Part shown: positions 35,888 to 60,983 of the stretch, piece by piece | How positions within the stretch are numbered: the first letter of the stretch is position 1 | Layout of the letters: the number at the start of each line of letters is the position of its first letter | Made by a program: the position numbers and the translations under genes | The notes under the pieces: model-generated | What the model was told of the DNA's origin: nothing | Database searches by the model: none | Seen by the model: only the letters and a program-made list of their open reading frames with translations | Virus record (IMG/VR): IMGVR_UViG_3300045988_138996 | Span: 165,775 to 229,774 of that record | Direction: 5' to 3' (one strand) | Source of the DNA: a virus | Length of the DNA stretch: 64,000 nt

Positions 35888-36444
35888 GAGCGAGCGTCAG
35901 CGAGCGACTGTATATTATTTTATATATAGTAAGCCCGAGCGAAGCGAGGGCGTATATATCAAGTTCTCTGTGTACTCTCTTCTAAAGAGAGTAGTTTTGT
36001 ATTTATTTAGTATAGTCTAAGGCGAGCGAAGCGAGCCGTATATTCTTTGTTTACTTTCTTTTTAAGAAAGTAATTATGTTTATTATTTATTATTAGTAGT
36101 TCTCTGCTGTCTCTCTTGTAAAGAGAGTAGTTATATTATTAGTATTTTATATGTATAGATTCTCTGTTATCTCTCTTATCAAGAGAGTAATTAGTTATTT
36201 TATATATATGTATCATAATAGTATTAACGCAGCGAGCGAAGCGAGCGGAGTATGTATTATGTAGTATGTAGTTATTCCCGAAGAACGAGGAACGCTAGTG
36301 ACGAGTGAATTGTAGTGTCCTAGCGTAAGCGACGATCATAAGAGTATATATTGTATATTATATATAGGGCGAGCGAGGGGAGCGTCAGCGACCGGAGCGA
36401 GCATAGTATTATTATATAATATATTATAGGGAGCATAGCGACCG
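35888..36444 (+). repeat. Cluster of GCGA-rich boxes each followed by (G)GTATAT
   Basis: GAGCGAAGCGAG is exact at 35936-35947, 36023-36034 and 36233-36244. Related agcgagcgtcagcgagcgac (35888-35907), gcgagcgaggggagcgtcagcgaccggagcgagc (36367-36400) and gagcatagcgaccgg (36430-36444). All are followed by GTATAT, AGTATG or AGTATT. Confidence 0.7.
35961..36190 (+). repeat. Three copies of a ~45-nt hairpin repeat plus one unrelated 10-bp hairpin
   Basis: TTCTCTG-N-CTCTCTT-loop-AAGAGAGTA at about 35961-35995, 36098-36130 and 36158-36190. ttactttctt/aagaaagtaa hairpin at 36050-36072. Confidence 0.7.
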
Positions 36445-37709
36445 GAGTATATATATAGTCTTATAGGAGCTAGATAGGCCAATAAGGATTGGTGAATATT
36501 TAGTATATCGTGATATAGTATATCGTATTATACTATAGTAGTATATAGTAAATATGTGAGATCCTTATTTACAGTAAAAAGAAAAATTCGGCCTTGAAAA
36601 TTTACAGGTCGTAGACCGGAAAATTTTAAGTATTTTCCGCCCGGGGATATCTATATCATATATATAGTATAAGAAGGAACGTAGTGACTGGTAGATATAT
36701 ATTATGTTAATAATATAGTATATTTTCTGCCGTCGGTATTTTGTTAAAAGAGAGACTACTATATATAATAATTTCCGCCTAGGATATTATGGTTTATATA
36801 TAATATGTTTTTAGTTAATGTTTTTCCTGTATGCATACGCATACAGATATTAAAAACTTTTAGGGTGGGATATCTTATAATAATATTGAACGTCAGTGAA
36901 ATGTTATTATAGATTTAAATCTATATTAGATATAATTTTAATGAGAGCTATTAATGTGAAGAATAGGGAGCGCCGCGAATCTATTCAGCTATTAAAATTC
37001 TTAGTCGACACGATAGTATAGTATGGTAGAGATCGTGTCGATAGGTTACGAGTGCTAACGAGTTATATGTAGAATTCGTTGAGATGAAGGATGTTATCGA
37101 TGAGCCCGCGAAGAGAAACATCGTTCTTTAGAATTCGTAACAATATATCTAATGCGTTTGTGTATTATCAATATATATCAAGAAAATATATACTGATGTG
37201 TTTGAGTGAAGCTTGCGAAAAGAAAAACGCAATCAATTTTTATATATCGTAACGAAGCCCGTAAGGGTTCGTATTAGTATTATATATAGCTTATGAATAT
37301 AAGCGTATGTATATAACTATTAATACGAATTATACCAAAGTATTAGAAGTTAGTAAGCGTCTAATAAGTAGGTGGTTTTTGTTTGGGATCCGCCGTTATC
37401 TTAGTATTTCATTTACTAGCTAAGGTATTTAAAAGTCCCTTGCGTTTATTTTAGTCGAGTTATTTTATATATAATATTATATATAATAATAACGAAGAGC
37501 CATTACTGTTAAGAATGGATAGTAGACGAAATTGGGAACGGGCCCCAATAATAGTTATTATATTCTCTTAGAGAATATATAACGTCAATGGTTCGTCGTG
37601 TACGATCCTTTTCGAGTTTCGCAGAAAATTACGTAAGTAAGAGTTTGTAGCATTTGTAAAATGGGACAACATTTTGTTAGTATTCTCGCTATGTTACACA
37701 TAGCGACAC

Positions 37710-37739
37710 AAAAAAAGACCCCGAATTAATTTCGAGGTC
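37710..37739 (-). terminator. Minus-strand rho-independent terminator
   Basis: On the - strand: gacctcgaa-atta-ttcggggtc with a T-G wobble (a C-A mismatch on +), then T7. Confidence 0.6.
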
Positions 37740-37762
37740 GTTATATATTGTTTACTAAAAGC

Positions 37763-37791
37763 GATGAACTACGTTCATCGGTATATTACTC
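37763..37791. promoter_or_regulatory. Class B element 1: 7-bp hairpin plus GGTATATTACTC
   Basis: gatgaac-tac-gttcatc followed by GGTATATTACTC (37780-37791). Confidence 0.65.
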
Positions 37792-37839
37792 ATGTTTAAG
37801 TATAAGTTATTAATAATTTAAAAAAATAATTCAGAAAAT

Positions 37840-37859
37840 AAAAAAGACCCCGAAGGGCC
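37840..37859 (-). terminator. Minus-strand terminator with a UUCG loop
   Basis: On the - strand: ggccc-ttcg-gggtc with a G-T wobble (an A-C mismatch on +), then T6. Confidence 0.6.
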
Positions 37860-37935
37860 ATTTTTATATAAGTATTTTTTTAATATTCAAAGCGGTGCGA
37901 AGCGAAGCGTAGCAAACCGTGGAGCGTAGCGGAAC

Positions 37936-37964
37936 GGTGAACTGCGTTCACCGGTATATTACTC
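37936..37964. promoter_or_regulatory. Class B element 2: 7-bp hairpin plus GGTATATTACTC
   Basis: ggtgaac-tgc-gttcacc followed by GGTATATTACTC (37953-37964). Confidence 0.65.
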
Positions 37965-38097
37965 TGTTTAGATACGTCGTTAATCAAAAATAAAAAAATA
38001 TTTTTTATTTAATTCTATTATATATATAACAAGCAATAAAAAAAACAGCCTCAGATTTTTATGACCTGGACTGTTTTGTGTGTGTAAAAACGGAAGC

Positions 38098-38128
38098 GGT
38101 GTAACGTAGTTACACCGGTATATTACTC
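38098..38128. promoter_or_regulatory. Class B element 3: 8-bp hairpin plus GGTATATTACTC
   Basis: ggtgtaac-gta-gttacacc followed by GGTATATTACTC (38117-38128). Confidence 0.65.
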
Positions 38129-38234
38129 AAGTTAGGTATATCATTAATCAATTTTGTAAAAATAATTAAATATTCATTATTAATGCATAAAGTAAGACAG
38201 GGGTATTTTTAAGTTAAAAAAATAGAAAAAATTA

Positions 38235-38259
38235 AAGTCAGATAATATCTGGCTTTTTT
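38235..38259 (+). terminator. Plus-strand rho-independent terminator in the ORF-free region
   Basis: gtcagat-aat-atctggc with a T-G wobble that works only on +, then T7. Confidence 0.55.
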
Positions 38260-38695
38260 TAATTTTAATGTCTGGTTTAGTATATATAGGAAACAATAAA
38301 ACATAATATACAGAATATGTATATTTATGAATACGAGCTTTTTTCAAAAGCGTTCGCCTACCATAGCTTACTCCGAAAAGTTTAAATGAAACGTCGTAAG
38401 CGTACTAGTGACGCGGGTTTTTAATAATTTTATATTTTAAAATTATGTAGGGTTAGGAACGAGGTATATAAAAATTGCTCCCTTAATAGTTCTTATTTAT
38501 CTCTTATATATACTATATATATAATATAAAAGGATTATTTTTTTATATAGTCCGCCGTCTCCTCACGAGCGCCAACCTGAGTTATATTTAGCTATATATA
38601 TAGGTATTGCTATAGCTTTATTTAGCTCTGTATATACGGCTAGACCTATTTAAAACATCTTACCTGTATAGGTAGCTCCCTTGGGGGGTGGGGGG

Positions 38696-38984
38696 AGTCC
38701 GCAACACTCTCAAGTTTGTTATTTTTAAGTAAAAACTAGTAAAAATTGTTTATGGCTATTAAAACGATTAAGAGTTGGTAACACTCTGTATTTGCTGTTA
38801 ATTAACTAAAAATGGCTGTTTTTATATATACAGCTATTAAAATCATTTTAAGTCCGCAACACTCATAATGTCTCCCTTTTTACACAAAAACAGCTTATTT
38901 TGCAATAACTAAGTTTCGTATTTTTGCAGTATTTTATAATATTTTAGTTTATGACTATTAATATCTATTAAGTCCACAACATTC
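38696..38984 (+). repeat. Four iteron-like 14-mers (AGTCCGCAACACTC family)
   Basis: 38696-38709 agtccgcaacactc; 38773-38786 agttggtaacactc; 38851-38864 agtccgcaacactc; 38971-38984 agtccacaacattc. The last three are preceded by a CTATTAA-N-ATT-AAG context. Confidence 0.65.
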
Positions 38985-39029
38985 ATAAAAACGTCTTAAA
39001 TAGTTAAAAACAATATATTTTCATATTAA

Positions 39030-55644: not shown

Positions 55645-55945
55645 TAATGAATATTTCATTAATAGTATTCCTGTCGATAAAAAGACTATAGGTCAATCAA
55701 CTGGATTAAAAGATAAACATGGTCAAGAAATATTTATTAACGATATTATTCATTTTAAAGCAAATTATGGTGATTTTATATTAGAATTAGCTACAGCTAC
55801 TGTCGGATTCGATGAATTAAATGGACGCCTTGCTGTTAAGATGAATGACAACATATTGGCATTATGCGACATGAATTATAGTAATGTCGAATACGAAGTA
55901 TTGGGAAATATATGGGAAGGAAAGATACATGAACAGAAACTTTAA
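55559..55945 (+). CDS. yopX: YopX-family protein
   Basis: YKFKAM N-terminus, TIGQSTGLKDKHGQEIFINDII and YEVLGNIWEG fit the YopX pattern (GQyTGlkDknGkeIyeGDi ... eViGNi). Confidence 0.65.
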   Translation: MYYKFKAMSKNLDDNQKKTLIIGSLLIDNNEYFINSIPVDKKTIGQSTGLKDKHGQEIFINDIIHFKANYGDFILELATATVGFDELNGRLAVKMNDNILALCDMNYSNVEYEVLGNIWEGKIHEQKL

Positions 55946-56312
55946 AGCCCGTTGTTTAAAAGATAGATCTTGGAAAACTGGTTTTTATTTGATTAAAAAG
56001 AAAGAACCATGTATTAAAGATATTAAAAATGTATGGCCGGTACATGAACAAACGATTTGTCAAAGTACTGGTTATATCGATTGTAATAAAAAAGAAATTT
56101 TTTTAGACGATTTAATTAATTTTGAAGCAACAATTAATGGCATTGAATTTAAATTAGAAAATTTGCAAGTATTATTCGATATTCCCAAAGGTAAATTAGT
56201 CTTATTCTCTGGAGACAAAACAATTGATTTTGTAAGTCCAGATTATGAAAATCCACATTACGAAGTTGTCGGAAATATCTGGGATAACATTGCGTTACCA
56301 AAAAAGAAGTAA
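55929..56312 (+). CDS. yopX: YopX-family protein (second paralog)
   Basis: ggaaggaaag SD. NFKARCL, TICQSTGYIDCNKKEIFLDDLI, YEVVGNIWDN. Confidence 0.65.
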   Translation: MNRNFKARCLKDRSWKTGFYLIKKKEPCIKDIKNVWPVHEQTICQSTGYIDCNKKEIFLDDLINFEATINGIEFKLENLQVLFDIPKGKLVLFSGDKTIDFVSPDYENPHYEVVGNIWDNIALPKKK

Positions 56313-59164: not shown

Positions 59165-59166
59165 TA

Positions 59167-59186
59167 TTCATGATTTTTATCATGAA
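59167..59186 (+). repeat. Left-end subterminal hairpin
   Basis: ttcatga-ttttta-tcatgaa. Confidence 0.6.
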
Positions 59187-59189
59187 ATA

Positions 59190-59625
59190 TATTTTAACAA
59201 AATAGTAAGCCTATTGGGAAACTAGTAGGTAGTGACGTTCTTACGCGTCCAACAAAGACACTGAATTGCTGGAAACCCCTAAAGCTCAGAGTACTTATAT
59301 ATATGTTTAATATATAATGAGTTACGAAAGTAGAAATAAATCTTTGAGATAAAATATGGTTAAATCCTAAGTTTTGTTAAGCAATGGGCAATCAGCAGCG
59401 AAGCCGGTGGCGACTTGTCGCCGGAACGTTCAACGACTAGACCTCGTGAGGGTCGTACACTACAAGTCTATAATGGTAGTGGAAGTGGTGTCGCCTAAGT
59501 CGTATCTATTACGATATGGATAAGATATAGTCTGTGCTCATGTGAAAGCATGAGATGCGCGTAATGGCGCTGGCTAGGAAGTGACGATCCTAGCTGAACG
59601 AGACCTCGAATTGATTTTAGAAATA
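59190..59625 (+). ncRNA. Group I intron catalytic core
   Basis: P element AATTGCTGGAAA (59264-59275), Q AATCAGCAGC (59390-59399), R GTTCAACGACTAGA (59428-59441), S AAGATATAGTCT (59522-59533). GACTA/TAGTC can form P7. GC-rich P6/P8/P9-like hairpins. Confidence 0.85.
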
Positions 59626-59729
59626 TGATTCTAAAATGTCCTGGAAAAGTTTTACTGAAAATTTGTTTTTCTGGCAAAAATATGTTATAATTATCTCGTA
59701 ATATAATATTAGAAAGCGAGGTGATTATA

Positions 59730-60983
59730 ATGTATCTAACAATAAAACAACAAGTAAAACATTTAACTAAAGAAGAATATAATATTTTAAGAGAATTGTC
59801 TAGAATAGCTAAGAATTTAACTAATCAAGCAATATATAATGTTCGACAACATTATTTTCAAGAAAAACAATATTTAAGATATGAAGCAAATTATCATGAA
59901 ATGAAATATCTTGAAAATTATAAATTATTAAATGCTAATATAGCTCAACAAACACTTAAAGATGTTGATATAATGTTTAAATCATTTTTTGCTTTAATAA
60001 AATTAGCAAAACAAGGTAAATATGACTTTAAACATATTAAATTACCTAGCTATTTACCTAAAAATAGTTATTCAAATATAGCTATTAGTCAAATTAGAAT
60101 TAAAAATAGTATTTTAACAATTCCATATTCTAATACTTTTAAAAGAAAAAAAGAAGTTAATAAAATTCAAATTAAGATTCCTAAAGTATTAGAAGATAAA
60201 AAAATAAAACAAATTCAAATTATTCCTAAATTTAATGCTAGGTTCTTCGAAATTCAATATACATATGAAATCGAAGAAGAAAATTTAAAATTAAATACTA
60301 ACAATGCACTAGCTATTGATTTAGGTGTAAATAATTTATGTACTTGTGTTACAAATACAGGCAAATCTTTTATTATTGATGGAAGAAAGTTAAAATCTAT
60401 TAATCAATTCTTTAATAAACAAAATGCAAACTTACAATCTATCAAAGACAAACAAAATATTAAACGACAAACAAAACAACAATATTTAATTTCTCGCAAG
60501 AGAAAAAATAGAATTGATGATTATATTAATAAAACCTGTCGATATGTTATTAATTATTGTTTATCTTACGATGTTGGTACTTTAGTTATTGGATATAATC
60601 AATCATTTCAAAATAAAACTAACTTAGGCAAAAGAAATAATCAAATTTTTACACAGTTACCATTTGGTAAGATTCGTGAAAAATTAGAATATTTATGTAA
60701 ACGATATAATATTAATTATATCTTACAAGAAGAATCTTATACTTCTAAAGCTAGTTTCTTTGATAATGATGAGTTGCCTATATATAATGCTGATAATCCA
60801 CAAACCTATGAATTTAGTGGCAAGCGTATTAAAAGAGGTTTATATCAAACTAAAGATAAATATCGTTTTAATGCAGATTGTAACGGAGCATTAAATATTC
60901 TTCGCAAAAGTAAAGCTGTAGACTTAACTGTCTTATGCAATAGAGGCGAACTGGACACGCCTAAAAGAATAAGGATCTCTTAG
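59730..60983 (+). CDS. tnpB: TnpB (IS605 OrfB-type RNA-guided nuclease family), variant lacking the zinc finger
   Basis: gaggtga SD. RuvC motifs ALAIDLGVNN (D), LQEESYTSKAS (E), FNADCNGALNILRK (D). No CxxC pairs between E and D. Confidence 0.85.
   Translation: MYLTIKQQVKHLTKEEYNILRELSRIAKNLTNQAIYNVRQHYFQEKQYLRYEANYHEMKYLENYKLLNANIAQQTLKDVDIMFKSFFALIKLAKQGKYDFKHIKLPSYLPKNSYSNIAISQIRIKNSILTIPYSNTFKRKKEVNKIQIKIPKVLEDKKIKQIQIIPKFNARFFEIQYTYEIEEENLKLNTNNALAIDLGVNNLCTCVTNTGKSFIIDGRKLKSINQFFNKQNANLQSIKDKQNIKRQTKQQYLISRKRKNRIDDYINKTCRYVINYCLSYDVGTLVIGYNQSFQNKTNLGKRNNQIFTQLPFGKIREKLEYLCKRYNINYILQEESYTSKASFFDNDELPIYNADNPQTYEFSGKRIKRGLYQTKDKYRFNADCNGALNILRKSKAVDLTVLCNRGELDTPKRIRIS

What the first reader, a model, noticed from the sequence alone, without database searches (positions are those of the whole stretch)
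37710..38128. Three tandem units of covarying hairpin plus an invariant 12-mer, each paired with a minus-strand terminator: candidate small RNA genes
GGTATATTACTC is exact at 37780, 37953 and 38117. Each copy is immediately preceded by a perfect 7-8 bp hairpin with a 3-nt loop whose stem covaries: gatgaac/gttcatc, ggtgaac/gttcacc, ggtgtaac/gttacacc. About 25 nt of partly conserved sequence (GTTTAxxTA..TTAATCA) follows each. Reading the - strand, each unit becomes TTAATG-N16-TAATAT (sigma-A-like), then the hairpin, then a 25-80 nt body, then a terminator. For two of the terminators the wobble pairs work only on the - strand (37710-37739, and 37840-37859 with a UUCG loop). That gives three putative 70-115 nt antisense-oriented transcripts in a window where every protein gene is on the + strand. 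The alternative reading is that they are + strand hairpin promoters of a second class.
Basis: partly seen in the sequence, partly recalled or inferred. Interest (0 to 1): 0.7.

Follow-up and report, generated by a model that had tools for sequence, protein, structure and literature searches.

The report
Triple DNA-hairpin promoter array with leftward terminators
Three tandem copies of a strictly conserved DNA hairpin next to a symmetric promoter-like 9-mer, each backed by a leftward-only terminator, occur once per genome in a new family of about 230-kb phages; they look like promoter cassettes with a DNA hairpin (partly like phage N4) rather than conventional small-RNA genes.

Summary
GGTATATTACTC occurs exactly three times (0.0065 expected). 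Each copy follows a perfect 8-9 bp hairpin with a 3-nt loop.

The same three-unit array occurs once per genome in two clades of uncultivated phages (contigs up to 236 kb). It always lies between the OTKONC RNA gene and the early genes.

- **Hairpin:** 100 unit instances give 15 hairpin variants with compensatory changes and no mismatch or G·T pair.
- **Terminators:** 24 of 25 distinct neighbouring terminator hairpins carry G·U pairs that work only on the minus strand. Terminators left of each unit face leftward in 24, 25 and 18 of 28 loci. The one after unit 3 faces rightward in 20 of 28.

Three points go against conventional sRNA genes:
- The conserved part is promoter-sized.
- The RNA bodies are full of insertions and deletions.
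- The proposed -35 is absent in clade B, and a sigma-70-type start would fall inside the hairpin.

The invariant core G-TATATTA-C offers a -10 hexamer on both strands. The hairpin-then-motif layout matches a second hairpin family that lies only on the gene strand.

Best reading: promoter cassettes containing a DNA hairpin, with a two-way core and terminators that stop the leftward arm. Start sites, the polymerase and the function are all unproven.

The parts
37519..37684 (+). OTKONC RNA (Rfam RF03053), the left neighbour of the array
   Evidence: 160 bits against a gathering score of 141. Found directly left of the array in 12 of 14 relatives searched.
37708..37739 (-). t0: leftward intrinsic terminator (hairpin 37717-37739, then T7 on the - strand)
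   Evidence: All 12 distinct versions in relatives carry a G·U pair that works only on the - strand.
37762..37780 (.). Unit 1 hairpin CGATGAAC-TAC-GTTCATCG
   Evidence: The G-C to A-T change in the stem is compensated.
37781..37789 (.). Unit 1 invariant core GTATATTAC (12-mer at 37780-37791)
37838..37859 (-). t1: leftward terminator GGCCC-UUCG-GGGUC followed by a U-run
37935..37953 (.). Unit 2 hairpin CGGTGAAC-TGC-GTTCACCG
37954..37962 (.). Unit 2 invariant core GTATATTAC
38036..38074 (-). t2: leftward (partly two-way) terminator, a bulged hairpin preceded on the + strand by an A-run
   Evidence: -14.0 kcal/mol on the - strand, -10.8 on the +; all 10 distinct versions in relatives have G·U pairs that work only on the - strand.
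38097..38117 (.). Unit 3 hairpin CGGTGTAAC-GTA-GTTACACCG
38118..38126 (.). Unit 3 invariant core GTATATTAC
38234..38263 (+). t3: rightward terminator after unit 3, with its G·U pair on the + strand. It may belong to a small + strand RNA that starts at a conserved TG(C/T)ATAAT near 38180-38190.
   Evidence: A + strand terminator is found in 20 of 28 loci and a - strand one in 0 of 28..

Best explanation
Each unit is a promoter-sized DNA element, not an RNA gene body. It has two parts: a hairpin that must form within a single strand, and next to it the invariant near-palindromic core G-TATATTA-C.

The core offers a -10-type hexamer on both strands: TATATT on top and TAATAT on the bottom. Position 2 of each hexamer pairs with position 6 of the other. 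This is the arrangement described for bacterial two-way promoters whose start sites lie 18 bp apart.

Transcription leaving the core leftward gives short RNAs of about 70-115 nt. Their sequence is not conserved, and each is stopped by its own leftward-only intrinsic terminator. Those terminators protect the upstream unit, the OTKONC gene and the late genes from antisense transcription.

Rightward initiation from the same core is likely. The layout (hairpin, then conserved motif, with a GNA loop on the bottom strand) copies the gene-strand hairpin elements of this phage and the hairpin promoters of phage N4.

**Shown:** conservation of the array; pairing of the hairpin at DNA level; symmetry of the core; polarity of the terminators; one array per genome.

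**Inferred:** that the core is the start region; that the hairpin extrudes under negative supercoiling and gates or recruits a polymerase; that there is a rightward arm; which polymerase acts.
For: **Conservation**
- The array of three units is conserved in two clades. It occurs once per genome in eight contigs of 203-236 kb.

**Hairpin**
- 100 instances give 15 variants with 0 mismatches and 0 G·T pairs.
- Compensatory changes are seen: cgGtg/caCcg to cgAtg/caTcg, CG..CG to TA..TA, and GAAC/GTTC to GGAC/GTCC.
- Total length varies from 19 to 21 nt and the loop from 2 to 4 nt. This argues against a duplex binding site for a protein dimer.
- Loops are C-GNA-G or C-GNNA-G on one strand, the stable DNA mini-hairpin type (PMC13037366 abstract). 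The bottom strand carries GAA or GCA in every case where the two strands differ in this respect.

**Terminators**
- The neighbouring terminators are RNA-type and specific to the - strand.
- Clean - strand terminators occur nowhere else in the 64 kb.

**Core**
- TATATTA fits the TANNNTA symmetry described for two-way promoters (bioRxiv 10.1101/2020.01.31.928960).

**Shared layout**
- Eight class-1 elements in the window and 74 in relatives have the form stem-TCC-stem-(C)GAAAT. All lie on the gene strand, and at least 20 different stems covary. Five lie 51-69 nt upstream of an ORF start.
- N4 uses three promoters, each with a hairpin carrying a C-GNA-G loop on the template strand (PMC4496689).

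**Bodies**
- The RNA bodies are rich in insertions and deletions.
Against: - No start site has been measured in either direction.
- Neither strand has a conserved -35.
- Unit 3 usually carries GTA on the top strand, so the bottom-strand GNA rule fails there.
- A rightward transcript would meet 1.4 kb of non-coding DNA and the terminator t3 before the first ORF.
- No phage RNA polymerase gene was found in the window.
- The sequence after the hairpin differs from class 1 (GGTATATTAC against CGAAAT).
- The second hairpin that starts at TATTAC is strong in only about 12 of 80 distinct units.
- If the leftward RNAs are only by-products, it is unclear why the phage keeps the core symmetric.
Confidence: 0.45

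Rival explanations
1. Three genuine minus-strand small-RNA genes. Each has a promoter in the core, a 5' hairpin in the RNA, a short body and a terminator. The RNAs act in trans, as regulators or as decoys that bind a host or phage protein through the conserved hairpin.
For: - Leftward terminators sit behind every unit and their polarity is conserved across clades.
- TAATAT is invariant, and a purine (G) always lies 7 nt downstream of it.
- Clade A has TTAAC at a 16-nt spacing.
- The rightward terminator t3 can be explained by a separate TG(C/T)ATAAT promoter, so no + strand product of the units is required.
Against: - With TAATAT as the -10, the start falls inside the 5' arm, so the RNA would lack the conserved and covarying outer stem.
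- The hairpin has no G·U pair in 100 instances, against 24 of 25 terminator hairpins.
- The bodies are not conserved. They tolerate inserts of 0-45 nt and insertions of GCGNAGC repeats.
- There is no -35 in clade B.
- The only Rfam match on this strand is a chance-level hit (ncr1015, 28 bits against a gathering score of 60).
Confidence: 0.2
2. Purely rightward hairpin promoters of a second class, read by a hairpin-specific phage RNA polymerase (packaged in the virion or made early) as in phage N4. The leftward terminators would serve another purpose, such as stopping stray host transcription.
For: - The layout matches the class-1 elements, which lie only on the gene strand.
- The bottom strand carries a C-GNA-G loop in units 1 and 2.
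- There are three per genome at the late/early junction, like N4 P1-P3 (PMC4496689).
- All genes are on the + strand.
- The core contains TATATTAC, the early-promoter consensus of phage phiKZ (PMC7058600).
Against: - It does not explain three unidirectional terminators that are maintained despite complete sequence turnover.
- No ORF lies within 1.4 kb downstream, and t3 is in the way.
- The N4 contact bases (a purine at the loop centre, +1C) are not matched.
- No polymerase gene was found.
Confidence: 0.15
3. A once-per-genome DNA site that is not mainly a promoter. It could be a replication origin (hairpins plus AT-rich unwinding tracts, activated by transcription directed away from it), a nick site for an HUH-type endonuclease (TATTAC resembles the NANTATT/AC origin nonamer of Rep-encoding circular ssDNA (CRESS) viruses), or a packaging or genome-end signal.
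For: - Exactly one array per roughly 230-kb genome, inside a 3.5-kb non-coding region at the late/early boundary.
- Long A/T palindromes lie to the right of unit 2.
- The hairpin is constrained at DNA level.
- ATATTAC is shared with the geminivirus nonamer (from my own knowledge, not tested).
Against: - The motif lies outside the hairpin loop.
- No Rep or HUH gene was found among the 48 ORFs scanned.
- GC skew shows no change at the site.
- Assemblies run straight through the region, so no genome end is visible.
- The terminators still require transcription.
Confidence: 0.1
4. An RNA-level motif (hairpin plus single-stranded GUAUAUUAC) repeated within a long plus-strand precursor that also contains OTKONC. 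It would serve as a processing or protein-binding site.
For: - The units lie directly downstream of OTKONC on the same strand.
- There is no efficient + strand terminator between OTKONC and t3.
Against: - It does not explain the minus-strand terminators.
- The stem has no G·U pairs.
- The loops are of the DNA-stable type, not the RNA-stable type.
Confidence: 0.05

Closest known systems
Phage N4 virion-RNA-polymerase early promoters (P1-P3)
   Same: - Three per genome.
- A short DNA hairpin with a 3-nt loop, closed by C:G and with a G..A loop on one strand.
- The stem sequence is free to change as long as pairing is kept.
- A conserved sequence lies next to the hairpin, and the site sits at the start of the early region (PMC4496689).
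   Different: - The stem is 8-9 bp rather than 5-7.
- The loop centre is T, C or A, not a purine.
- A 9-mer resembling a -10 element follows, instead of A4 then C(+1).
- Unit 3 breaks the template-strand rule.
- Leftward terminators are attached.
- The host phage is a roughly 230-kb genome with a DnaE-type polymerase, not a 70-kb schitovirus.
- No virion RNA polymerase has been identified.
Bacterial two-way (divergent) sigma-70 promoters with overlapping -10 elements
   Same: The core TATATTA has the TANNNTA symmetry: position 2 of one hexamer pairs with position 6 of the other. This predicts start sites 18 bp apart.
   Different: - No -35 or extended -10 is conserved.
- A mandatory DNA hairpin flanks the core.
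- The element is tripled, and each copy has a dedicated one-way terminator.
Tandem early promoters A1-A2-A3 of phage T7 (from my own knowledge)
   Same: Three promoters in tandem, about 125-195 nt apart, at the boundary where early genes begin.
   Different: - The T7 promoters are plain sigma-70 promoters that all fire rightward into coding genes.
- They have no hairpins and no terminators between them.
Early promoters of phiKZ-like jumbo phages (virion RNA polymerase)
   Same: The 8-mer TATATTAC is identical (PMC7058600). These promoters are an AT-rich motif of about 10 nt with no -35 (PMC7598289).
   Different: - phiKZ-type motifs are scattered upstream of many early operons. Here there are three copies at one locus per genome.
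- A hairpin is obligatory here.
- No multisubunit phage polymerase has been seen.
Origin hairpins of HUH Rep proteins (circular ssDNA-virus nonamer NANTATT/AC) and IS200/IS605 ends
   Same: A hairpin used in single-stranded form beside a TATTAC-type motif (from my own knowledge).
   Different: - The motif is outside the loop.
- No Rep or TnpA gene is present. The only IS605-family gene is a TnpB 22 kb away.

Membership tests
N4-type DNA hairpin promoter | Short perfect hairpin with a 3-nt loop, where the stem sequence is free but pairing is required | tested here: met
   8-9 bp stems with 3-nt loops in the window. 15 variants with compensatory changes and no mismatches. The stem is longer than N4's 5-7 bp, and clade B has loops of 2-4 nt.
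N4-type DNA hairpin promoter | Template-strand loop 5'-G-N-A-3' closed by C:G | tested here: inconclusive
   For rightward transcription the bottom strand reads GTA (U1), GCA (U2) and TAC (U3) in the window. Across relatives U1 and U2 obey the rule, and most U3 copies do not.
N4-type DNA hairpin promoter | Specific contact bases (-11 purine, -10G, -8G, +1C) and an A4 spacer | tested here: not met
   The loop centre is T, C or A. The hairpin is followed by GTATATTAC, not by an A/T4 spacer then C/G (PMC4496689).
N4-type DNA hairpin promoter | The phage encodes a hairpin-specific (T7-like, virion-packaged) RNA polymerase | not testable with these tools
   None was found among the window ORFs scanned. 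About 165 kb of the genome lies outside the window.
Two-way sigma-70 promoter | Overlapping -10 hexamers on opposite strands, with positions 2 and 6 paired | tested here: met
   TATATT and TAATAT lie within the invariant TATATTA in all 100 instances.
Two-way sigma-70 promoter | Divergent start sites about 18 bp apart | not testable with these tools
   No transcript data are available.
   Clade A matches 3-4 of 6 in 45 of 53 distinct units. Clade B matches 1-2 of 6 in 35 of 36.
Intrinsic (Rho-independent) terminator, minus strand | GC-rich RNA hairpin followed at once by a U-run | tested here: met
   t0 and t1 are called by the scan. Minus-strand terminators are found in 24, 25 and 18 of 28 loci. 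24 of 25 distinct hairpins have G·U pairs that work only on the - strand.
Trans-acting small RNA gene | Conserved transcribed body or seed region between promoter and terminator | tested here: not met
   The bodies differ by inserts of 0 to about 45 nt and are poorly conserved. Conservation is confined to the hairpin and core.
phiKZ-like early promoter | Conserved AT-rich motif repeated upstream of many early operons | tested here: not met
   The motif is identical (TATATTAC). However, there are only three + strand copies in 64 kb and one locus per roughly 230-kb genome.
HUH Rep origin | The nonamer lies in the loop of the hairpin, and a Rep gene is present | tested here: not met
   The motif lies 3' of the stem. 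No Rep or HUH domain was found in the ORFs scanned.

The most novel reading that the evidence does not exclude
The array is a once-per-genome switch driven by DNA supercoiling, in the first phage family outside the N4-like viruses to use DNA-hairpin promoters.

On this reading, host polymerase fires leftward from the symmetric core. The negative supercoils left behind it push out the 8-9 bp hairpins. The extruded bottom-strand hairpin then allows a hairpin-specific phage polymerase to start rightward, or opens the adjacent AT-rich tract as a replication origin. The leftward terminators keep this priming transcription short.
Probability: 0.15. Interest if true: 0.85.

Novelty: new variant of a known kind. 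Interest (0 to 1): 0.6.

Why it matters
DNA-hairpin promoters are known essentially from phage N4 and its relatives. Here a distinct, uncultivated family of roughly 230-kb phages carries two families of covarying DNA hairpin elements. Its contig names suggest Human Microbiome Project-type samples (an inference; source and host were not established).

The elements studied here are tripled, occur once per genome and sit next to the orphan OTKONC RNA. They are also wired to one-way terminators, an arrangement not described for N4, T7 or phiKZ.

If confirmed, this would have three consequences:
- It would extend structure-based promoter recognition to jumbo phages.
- It would give OTKONC a genomic context (a phage control region).
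- It would provide a compact natural promoter-plus-insulator cassette.

The strand-specific wobble test used here (G·U pairs in the terminators, none in the hairpin) is a general way to tell RNA-level from DNA-level hairpins using sequence alone.

Tried and rejected
- **Known phages.** No DNA similarity was found. Structural proteins gave no hits. The DnaE protein is only 35% identical to that of a Moorella phage.
- **tRNA.** None in the window.
- **Phage RNA polymerase.** Pfam, PHROGs and PDB searches of the large ORFs found nothing. An exact-protein contig look-up found no record.
- **Host.** The genome-contig scan gave only chance hits. The repeated Veillonella matches lie in a conserved coding gene.
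- **Second hairpin.** A hairpin starting at TATTAC looked like strong covariation (CGTGTC/GACACG, GCATC/GATGC, TTACTC/GAGTAA, CCGTGCAC/GTGCACGG). It is present in only about 12 of 80 distinct units, with a mean z-score of -0.14, so it is not a defining feature.
- **CRISPR mimic or mini-array.** The idea was that the variable stretch after the hairpin is a spacer. The window has no arrays. The variable stretches are related to one another by insertions and deletions rather than being hypervariable. No direct search for matching target sequences was run.
- **Protein-dimer operator.** Rejected because total length varies from 19 to 21 nt and the loop from 2 to 4 nt.
- **phiKZ-type early promoters.** Rejected on copy number.
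- **Alignment-based pair counts.** MAFFT placed the 8-bp and 9-bp stems out of register. Pair counts were therefore made by script instead of with the count of structure pairs.
- **Rfam ncr1015.** The hit on the - strand scores 28 bits against a gathering score of 60 and is treated as chance.
Full report
**Observation.** GGTATATTACTC is exact at 37780, 37953 and 37953+164 = 38117 on the + strand and occurs nowhere else. Base composition predicts 0.0065 exact copies. The inner 8-mer TATATTAC occurs on the + strand only in these three places. Each copy is preceded by a perfect hairpin whose closing C-G pair uses the first G of the 12-mer: CGATGAAC-TAC-GTTCATCG (37762-37780), CGGTGAAC-TGC-GTTCACCG (37935-37953) and CGGTGTAAC-GTA-GTTACACCG (38097-38117). 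Folded as DNA, both strands give z-scores of -3.8 to -4.8 against shuffles.

**Context.** The window is AT-rich phage DNA (25-41% GC), and every sizeable ORF is on the + strand. It runs from a DnaE-type polymerase and tail genes, through a non-coding stretch of about 3.5 kb (36.0-39.5 kb), to many small ORFs that are probably early genes. No known phage resembles it at DNA level. Directly left of unit 1 lies a full-length match to the Rfam family OTKONC (37519-37684, +, 160 bits).

**Relatives.** Pattern scans of viral contigs recovered the array in two clades:
- Clade A is 80-88% identical to the window, with one 68% outlier, L026.
- Clade B has the same architecture but different flanking sequences.

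Contigs reach 236 kb. In eight contigs of 203-236 kb the units occur at one locus only. Nearly every locus that is not cut off has exactly three units, 108-195 nt apart. One locus, L023, has two units; there the unit 2 hairpin is fused to the right flank of unit 3. OTKONC lies just left of the array in 12 of 14 loci searched.

**The hairpin is constrained at DNA level.** In 100 unit instances there are 15 hairpin variants, with no mismatch and no G·T pair.
- Changes are compensated. Examples are cgGtg/caCcg to cgAtg/caTcg, CG...CG to TA...TA in clade B unit 1 (which turns the core's leading G into A), GAAC/GTTC to GGAC/GTCC in L328, and insertion of a whole pair, as in GAAC against GAAAC or GTAAC.
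- Total length is 19, 20 or 21 nt and the loop is 2-4 nt. No fixed half-site spacing exists for a protein dimer on duplex DNA, so the pairing must be within one strand.
- The loops are C-TNC-G on top, which is C-GNA-G below, or C-GNNA-G in clade B. This is the very stable DNA mini-hairpin type (PMC13037366, abstract seen), not an RNA-favoured loop.
- The terminators a few dozen bases away behave like RNA. Of 25 distinct hairpins, 24 contain a G·U pair that would be a C·A mismatch on the other strand, and one has a UUCG loop.

This contrast within the same 500 bp is the strongest argument that the unit hairpin is not simply the 5' stem-loop of a transcript.

**The core.** It is nearly palindromic: G-TATATT-AC on top and G-TAATAT-AC below. 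The two hexamers overlap so that position 2 of one pairs with position 6 of the other. This is the symmetric arrangement reported for bacterial two-way promoters with start sites 18 bp apart (bioRxiv 10.1101/2020.01.31.928960). No -35 is conserved on either strand. The plus strand scores 1-2 of 6 throughout. The 8-mer TATATTAC equals the phiKZ early-promoter consensus (PMC7058600). However, phiKZ-type motifs are scattered upstream of many operons (PMC7598289), which is not the case here.

**Terminator polarity.** In 28 loci with three units, a terminator-like site (stem of at least 5 pairs, then a T-run) was found as follows:

| Interval | Minus strand | Plus strand |
|---|---|---|
| Left of unit 1 | 24 of 28 | 1 of 28 |
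| Between units 1 and 2 | 25 of 28 | 1 of 28 |
| Between units 2 and 3 | 18 of 28 | 2 of 28 |
| Right of unit 3 | 0 of 28 | 20 of 28 |

The sequences of t0, t1 and t2 are unrelated in clade A, L026 and clade B. They nevertheless keep the A-run on the + side and the minus-only wobble pairs. In the whole 64-kb window, clean minus-strand terminators occur only here. Minus-strand transcription through these sites is therefore real and under selection. Three good terminators in series would be pointless unless transcription restarted in each interval. The only element shared by the three intervals is the unit itself. I therefore accept that leftward transcripts start in or near each core.

**Why these are not conventional sRNA genes.**
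- The hairpin begins 3 nt after TAATAT. A sigma-70-type start 7 nt downstream, at an invariant G, lies inside the 5' arm, so the RNA would lack the conserved, covarying outer stem.
- The stretch between hairpin and terminator, the would-be RNA body, is poorly conserved. It varies by inserts of 0, about 19, about 28 and about 45 nt, including GCGNAGC-rich repeats.
- What the three paralogous units share is about 45 nt, the size of a promoter.
- A second hairpin starting at TATTAC, which at first looked like covariation, is strong in only about 12 of 80 distinct units. I do not count it as part of the element.

**A second hairpin family gives the layout a direction.** The window holds eight elements of the form [4-5 bp GC stem]-TCC-[stem]-(C)GAAAT. 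All are on the + strand (none on the - strand). Their stems covary (GGGC/GCCC, GTGC/GCAC, CCCC/GGGG, GACGC/GCGTC, GCGAC/GTCGC). Five lie 51-69 nt upstream of an ORF start. Relatives add 74 more, all on the gene strand, with at least 20 different perfectly complementary stems. On the bottom strand these elements read GC-GGA-GC. N4 promoter hairpins carry a GC-rich heptamer and a template-strand loop 5'-GNA-3' closed by C:G (PMC4496689). This phage therefore appears to use N4-style hairpin signals in the direction of its genes. The units under study have the same order (hairpin, then conserved motif, reading rightward). They also show the same bottom-strand GNA loop in units 1 and 2 of all relatives, though usually not in unit 3.

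**Most likely mechanism (confidence 0.45).** Each unit is a promoter cassette that contains a DNA hairpin and has an inherently two-way core.
- *Leftward arm.* It yields short RNAs of arbitrary sequence, predicted as roughly 37776 to 37709, 37949 to 37838 and 38113 to 38037. A dedicated terminator cuts each one off, shielding the upstream unit, OTKONC and the late genes from antisense transcription.
- *Rightward arm.* It is inferred from the shared layout and from the better -10 match (TATATT, with G at -14).
- *Hairpin.* By analogy with N4, it probably extrudes under negative supercoiling and either recruits a hairpin-specific polymerase or gates the host enzyme.

The conservation, DNA-level pairing, core symmetry, terminator polarity and single copy per genome are shown. 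The start sites, the extrusion, the polymerase and the biological role are inferred.

**Rivals.**
- *True minus-strand sRNA genes (0.2).* This explains the terminators most simply. It does not explain the DNA-type hairpin, the start-site geometry or the unconserved bodies.
- *Purely rightward N4-like promoters (0.15).* This fits the layout but leaves the terminators unexplained. It also has no ORF within 1.4 kb, with t3 in the way. In addition, t3 may belong to a separate small + strand RNA driven by a conserved TG(C/T)ATAAT.
- *A non-promoter single-copy site, such as an origin, an HUH nick site or a packaging signal (0.1).* This fits the one-per-genome count and the A/T palindromes. It lacks a Rep gene, a change in GC skew or visible genome ends.
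- *An RNA motif inside a long + strand precursor (0.05).* This fails on the terminators and on the absence of wobble pairs.

**Limits.** No transcript data exist. The host is unknown; the genome scan gave only chance hits, and a YopX-domain ORF hints at a Firmicutes-type host. About 165 kb of the genome, where a polymerase gene might lie, could not be examined.

**Verdict.** The feature is real, strongly conserved and unusual. The element is best filed as a new variant of hairpin-containing phage promoters with built-in terminators that stop the leftward arm.

Noticed in passing
window 37519-37684 (+): Full-length OTKONC RNA (Rfam RF03053, 160 bits). It lies just left of the array in 12 of 14 relatives, so this orphan RNA family belongs to the control region of a jumbo-phage lineage.
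   Followed up: partly
window 31235, 32379, 33227, 33734, 33925, 39495, 47958, 53900 (+): A second family of covarying hairpin elements, [4-5 bp stem]-TCC-[stem]-(C)GAAAT. All lie on the gene strand, and five are 51-69 nt upstream of an ORF start. The bottom strand reads GC-GGA-GC, as in N4 promoter hairpins. Relatives hold 74 more, none on the opposite strand.
   Followed up: partly
window 35930-36400 (+): GC-rich hairpins built around GCGAAGC with tandem G·A mismatches (for example GGCGAGC-GAA-GCGAGCC). Each is followed by GTATAT and then by a CTCTCTT-N3-AAGAGAG hairpin with a T-run on the + strand. They look like small tandem rightward cassettes.
   Followed up: no
window 38696-39011: Four copies of AGTCCGCAACACTC...AAAAAC about 77 nt apart, preceded by a G-run (GGGGGGTGGGGGG). 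Clade B has an analogous repeat, GGAGGAGGGTAGRAAACACTTCTCT.
   Followed up: no
window 38270-38400: This stretch is almost identical in L026, a relative that is only 68% identical elsewhere. It contains small hairpins (GCTTTT-TTC-AAAAGC) and is probably another structured element.
   Followed up: no
window 38180-38263 (+): A conserved TG(C/T)ATAAT in both clades, followed about 50-70 nt later by the rightward terminator t3. This may be a small + strand RNA gene with a host-type promoter.
   Followed up: partly
window 59721-60983 (+): A TnpB-like ORF (OrfB_IS605 plus a Cas12f1-like TNB domain) with no tnpA nearby. Structured non-coding DNA lies at 59165-59720.
   Followed up: no
L023 14387-14600 (reverse strand): A two-unit variant of the array. 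The unit 2 hairpin and left flank are joined to the right flank of unit 3, which shows recombination within the conserved core.
   Followed up: partly
window 37890-37935, and L007/L025/L001 upstream of units: Inserts rich in GCGAAGC and GCGTAGC mini-hairpin motifs lie between a terminator and the next unit hairpin. They occur at different units in different phages.
   Followed up: no
window 55884-56312 (+): An ORF with a YopX domain (Pfam PF09643, E = 3e-8). From my own knowledge this domain is common in phages of Firmicutes. It is the only hint about the host.
   Followed up: no
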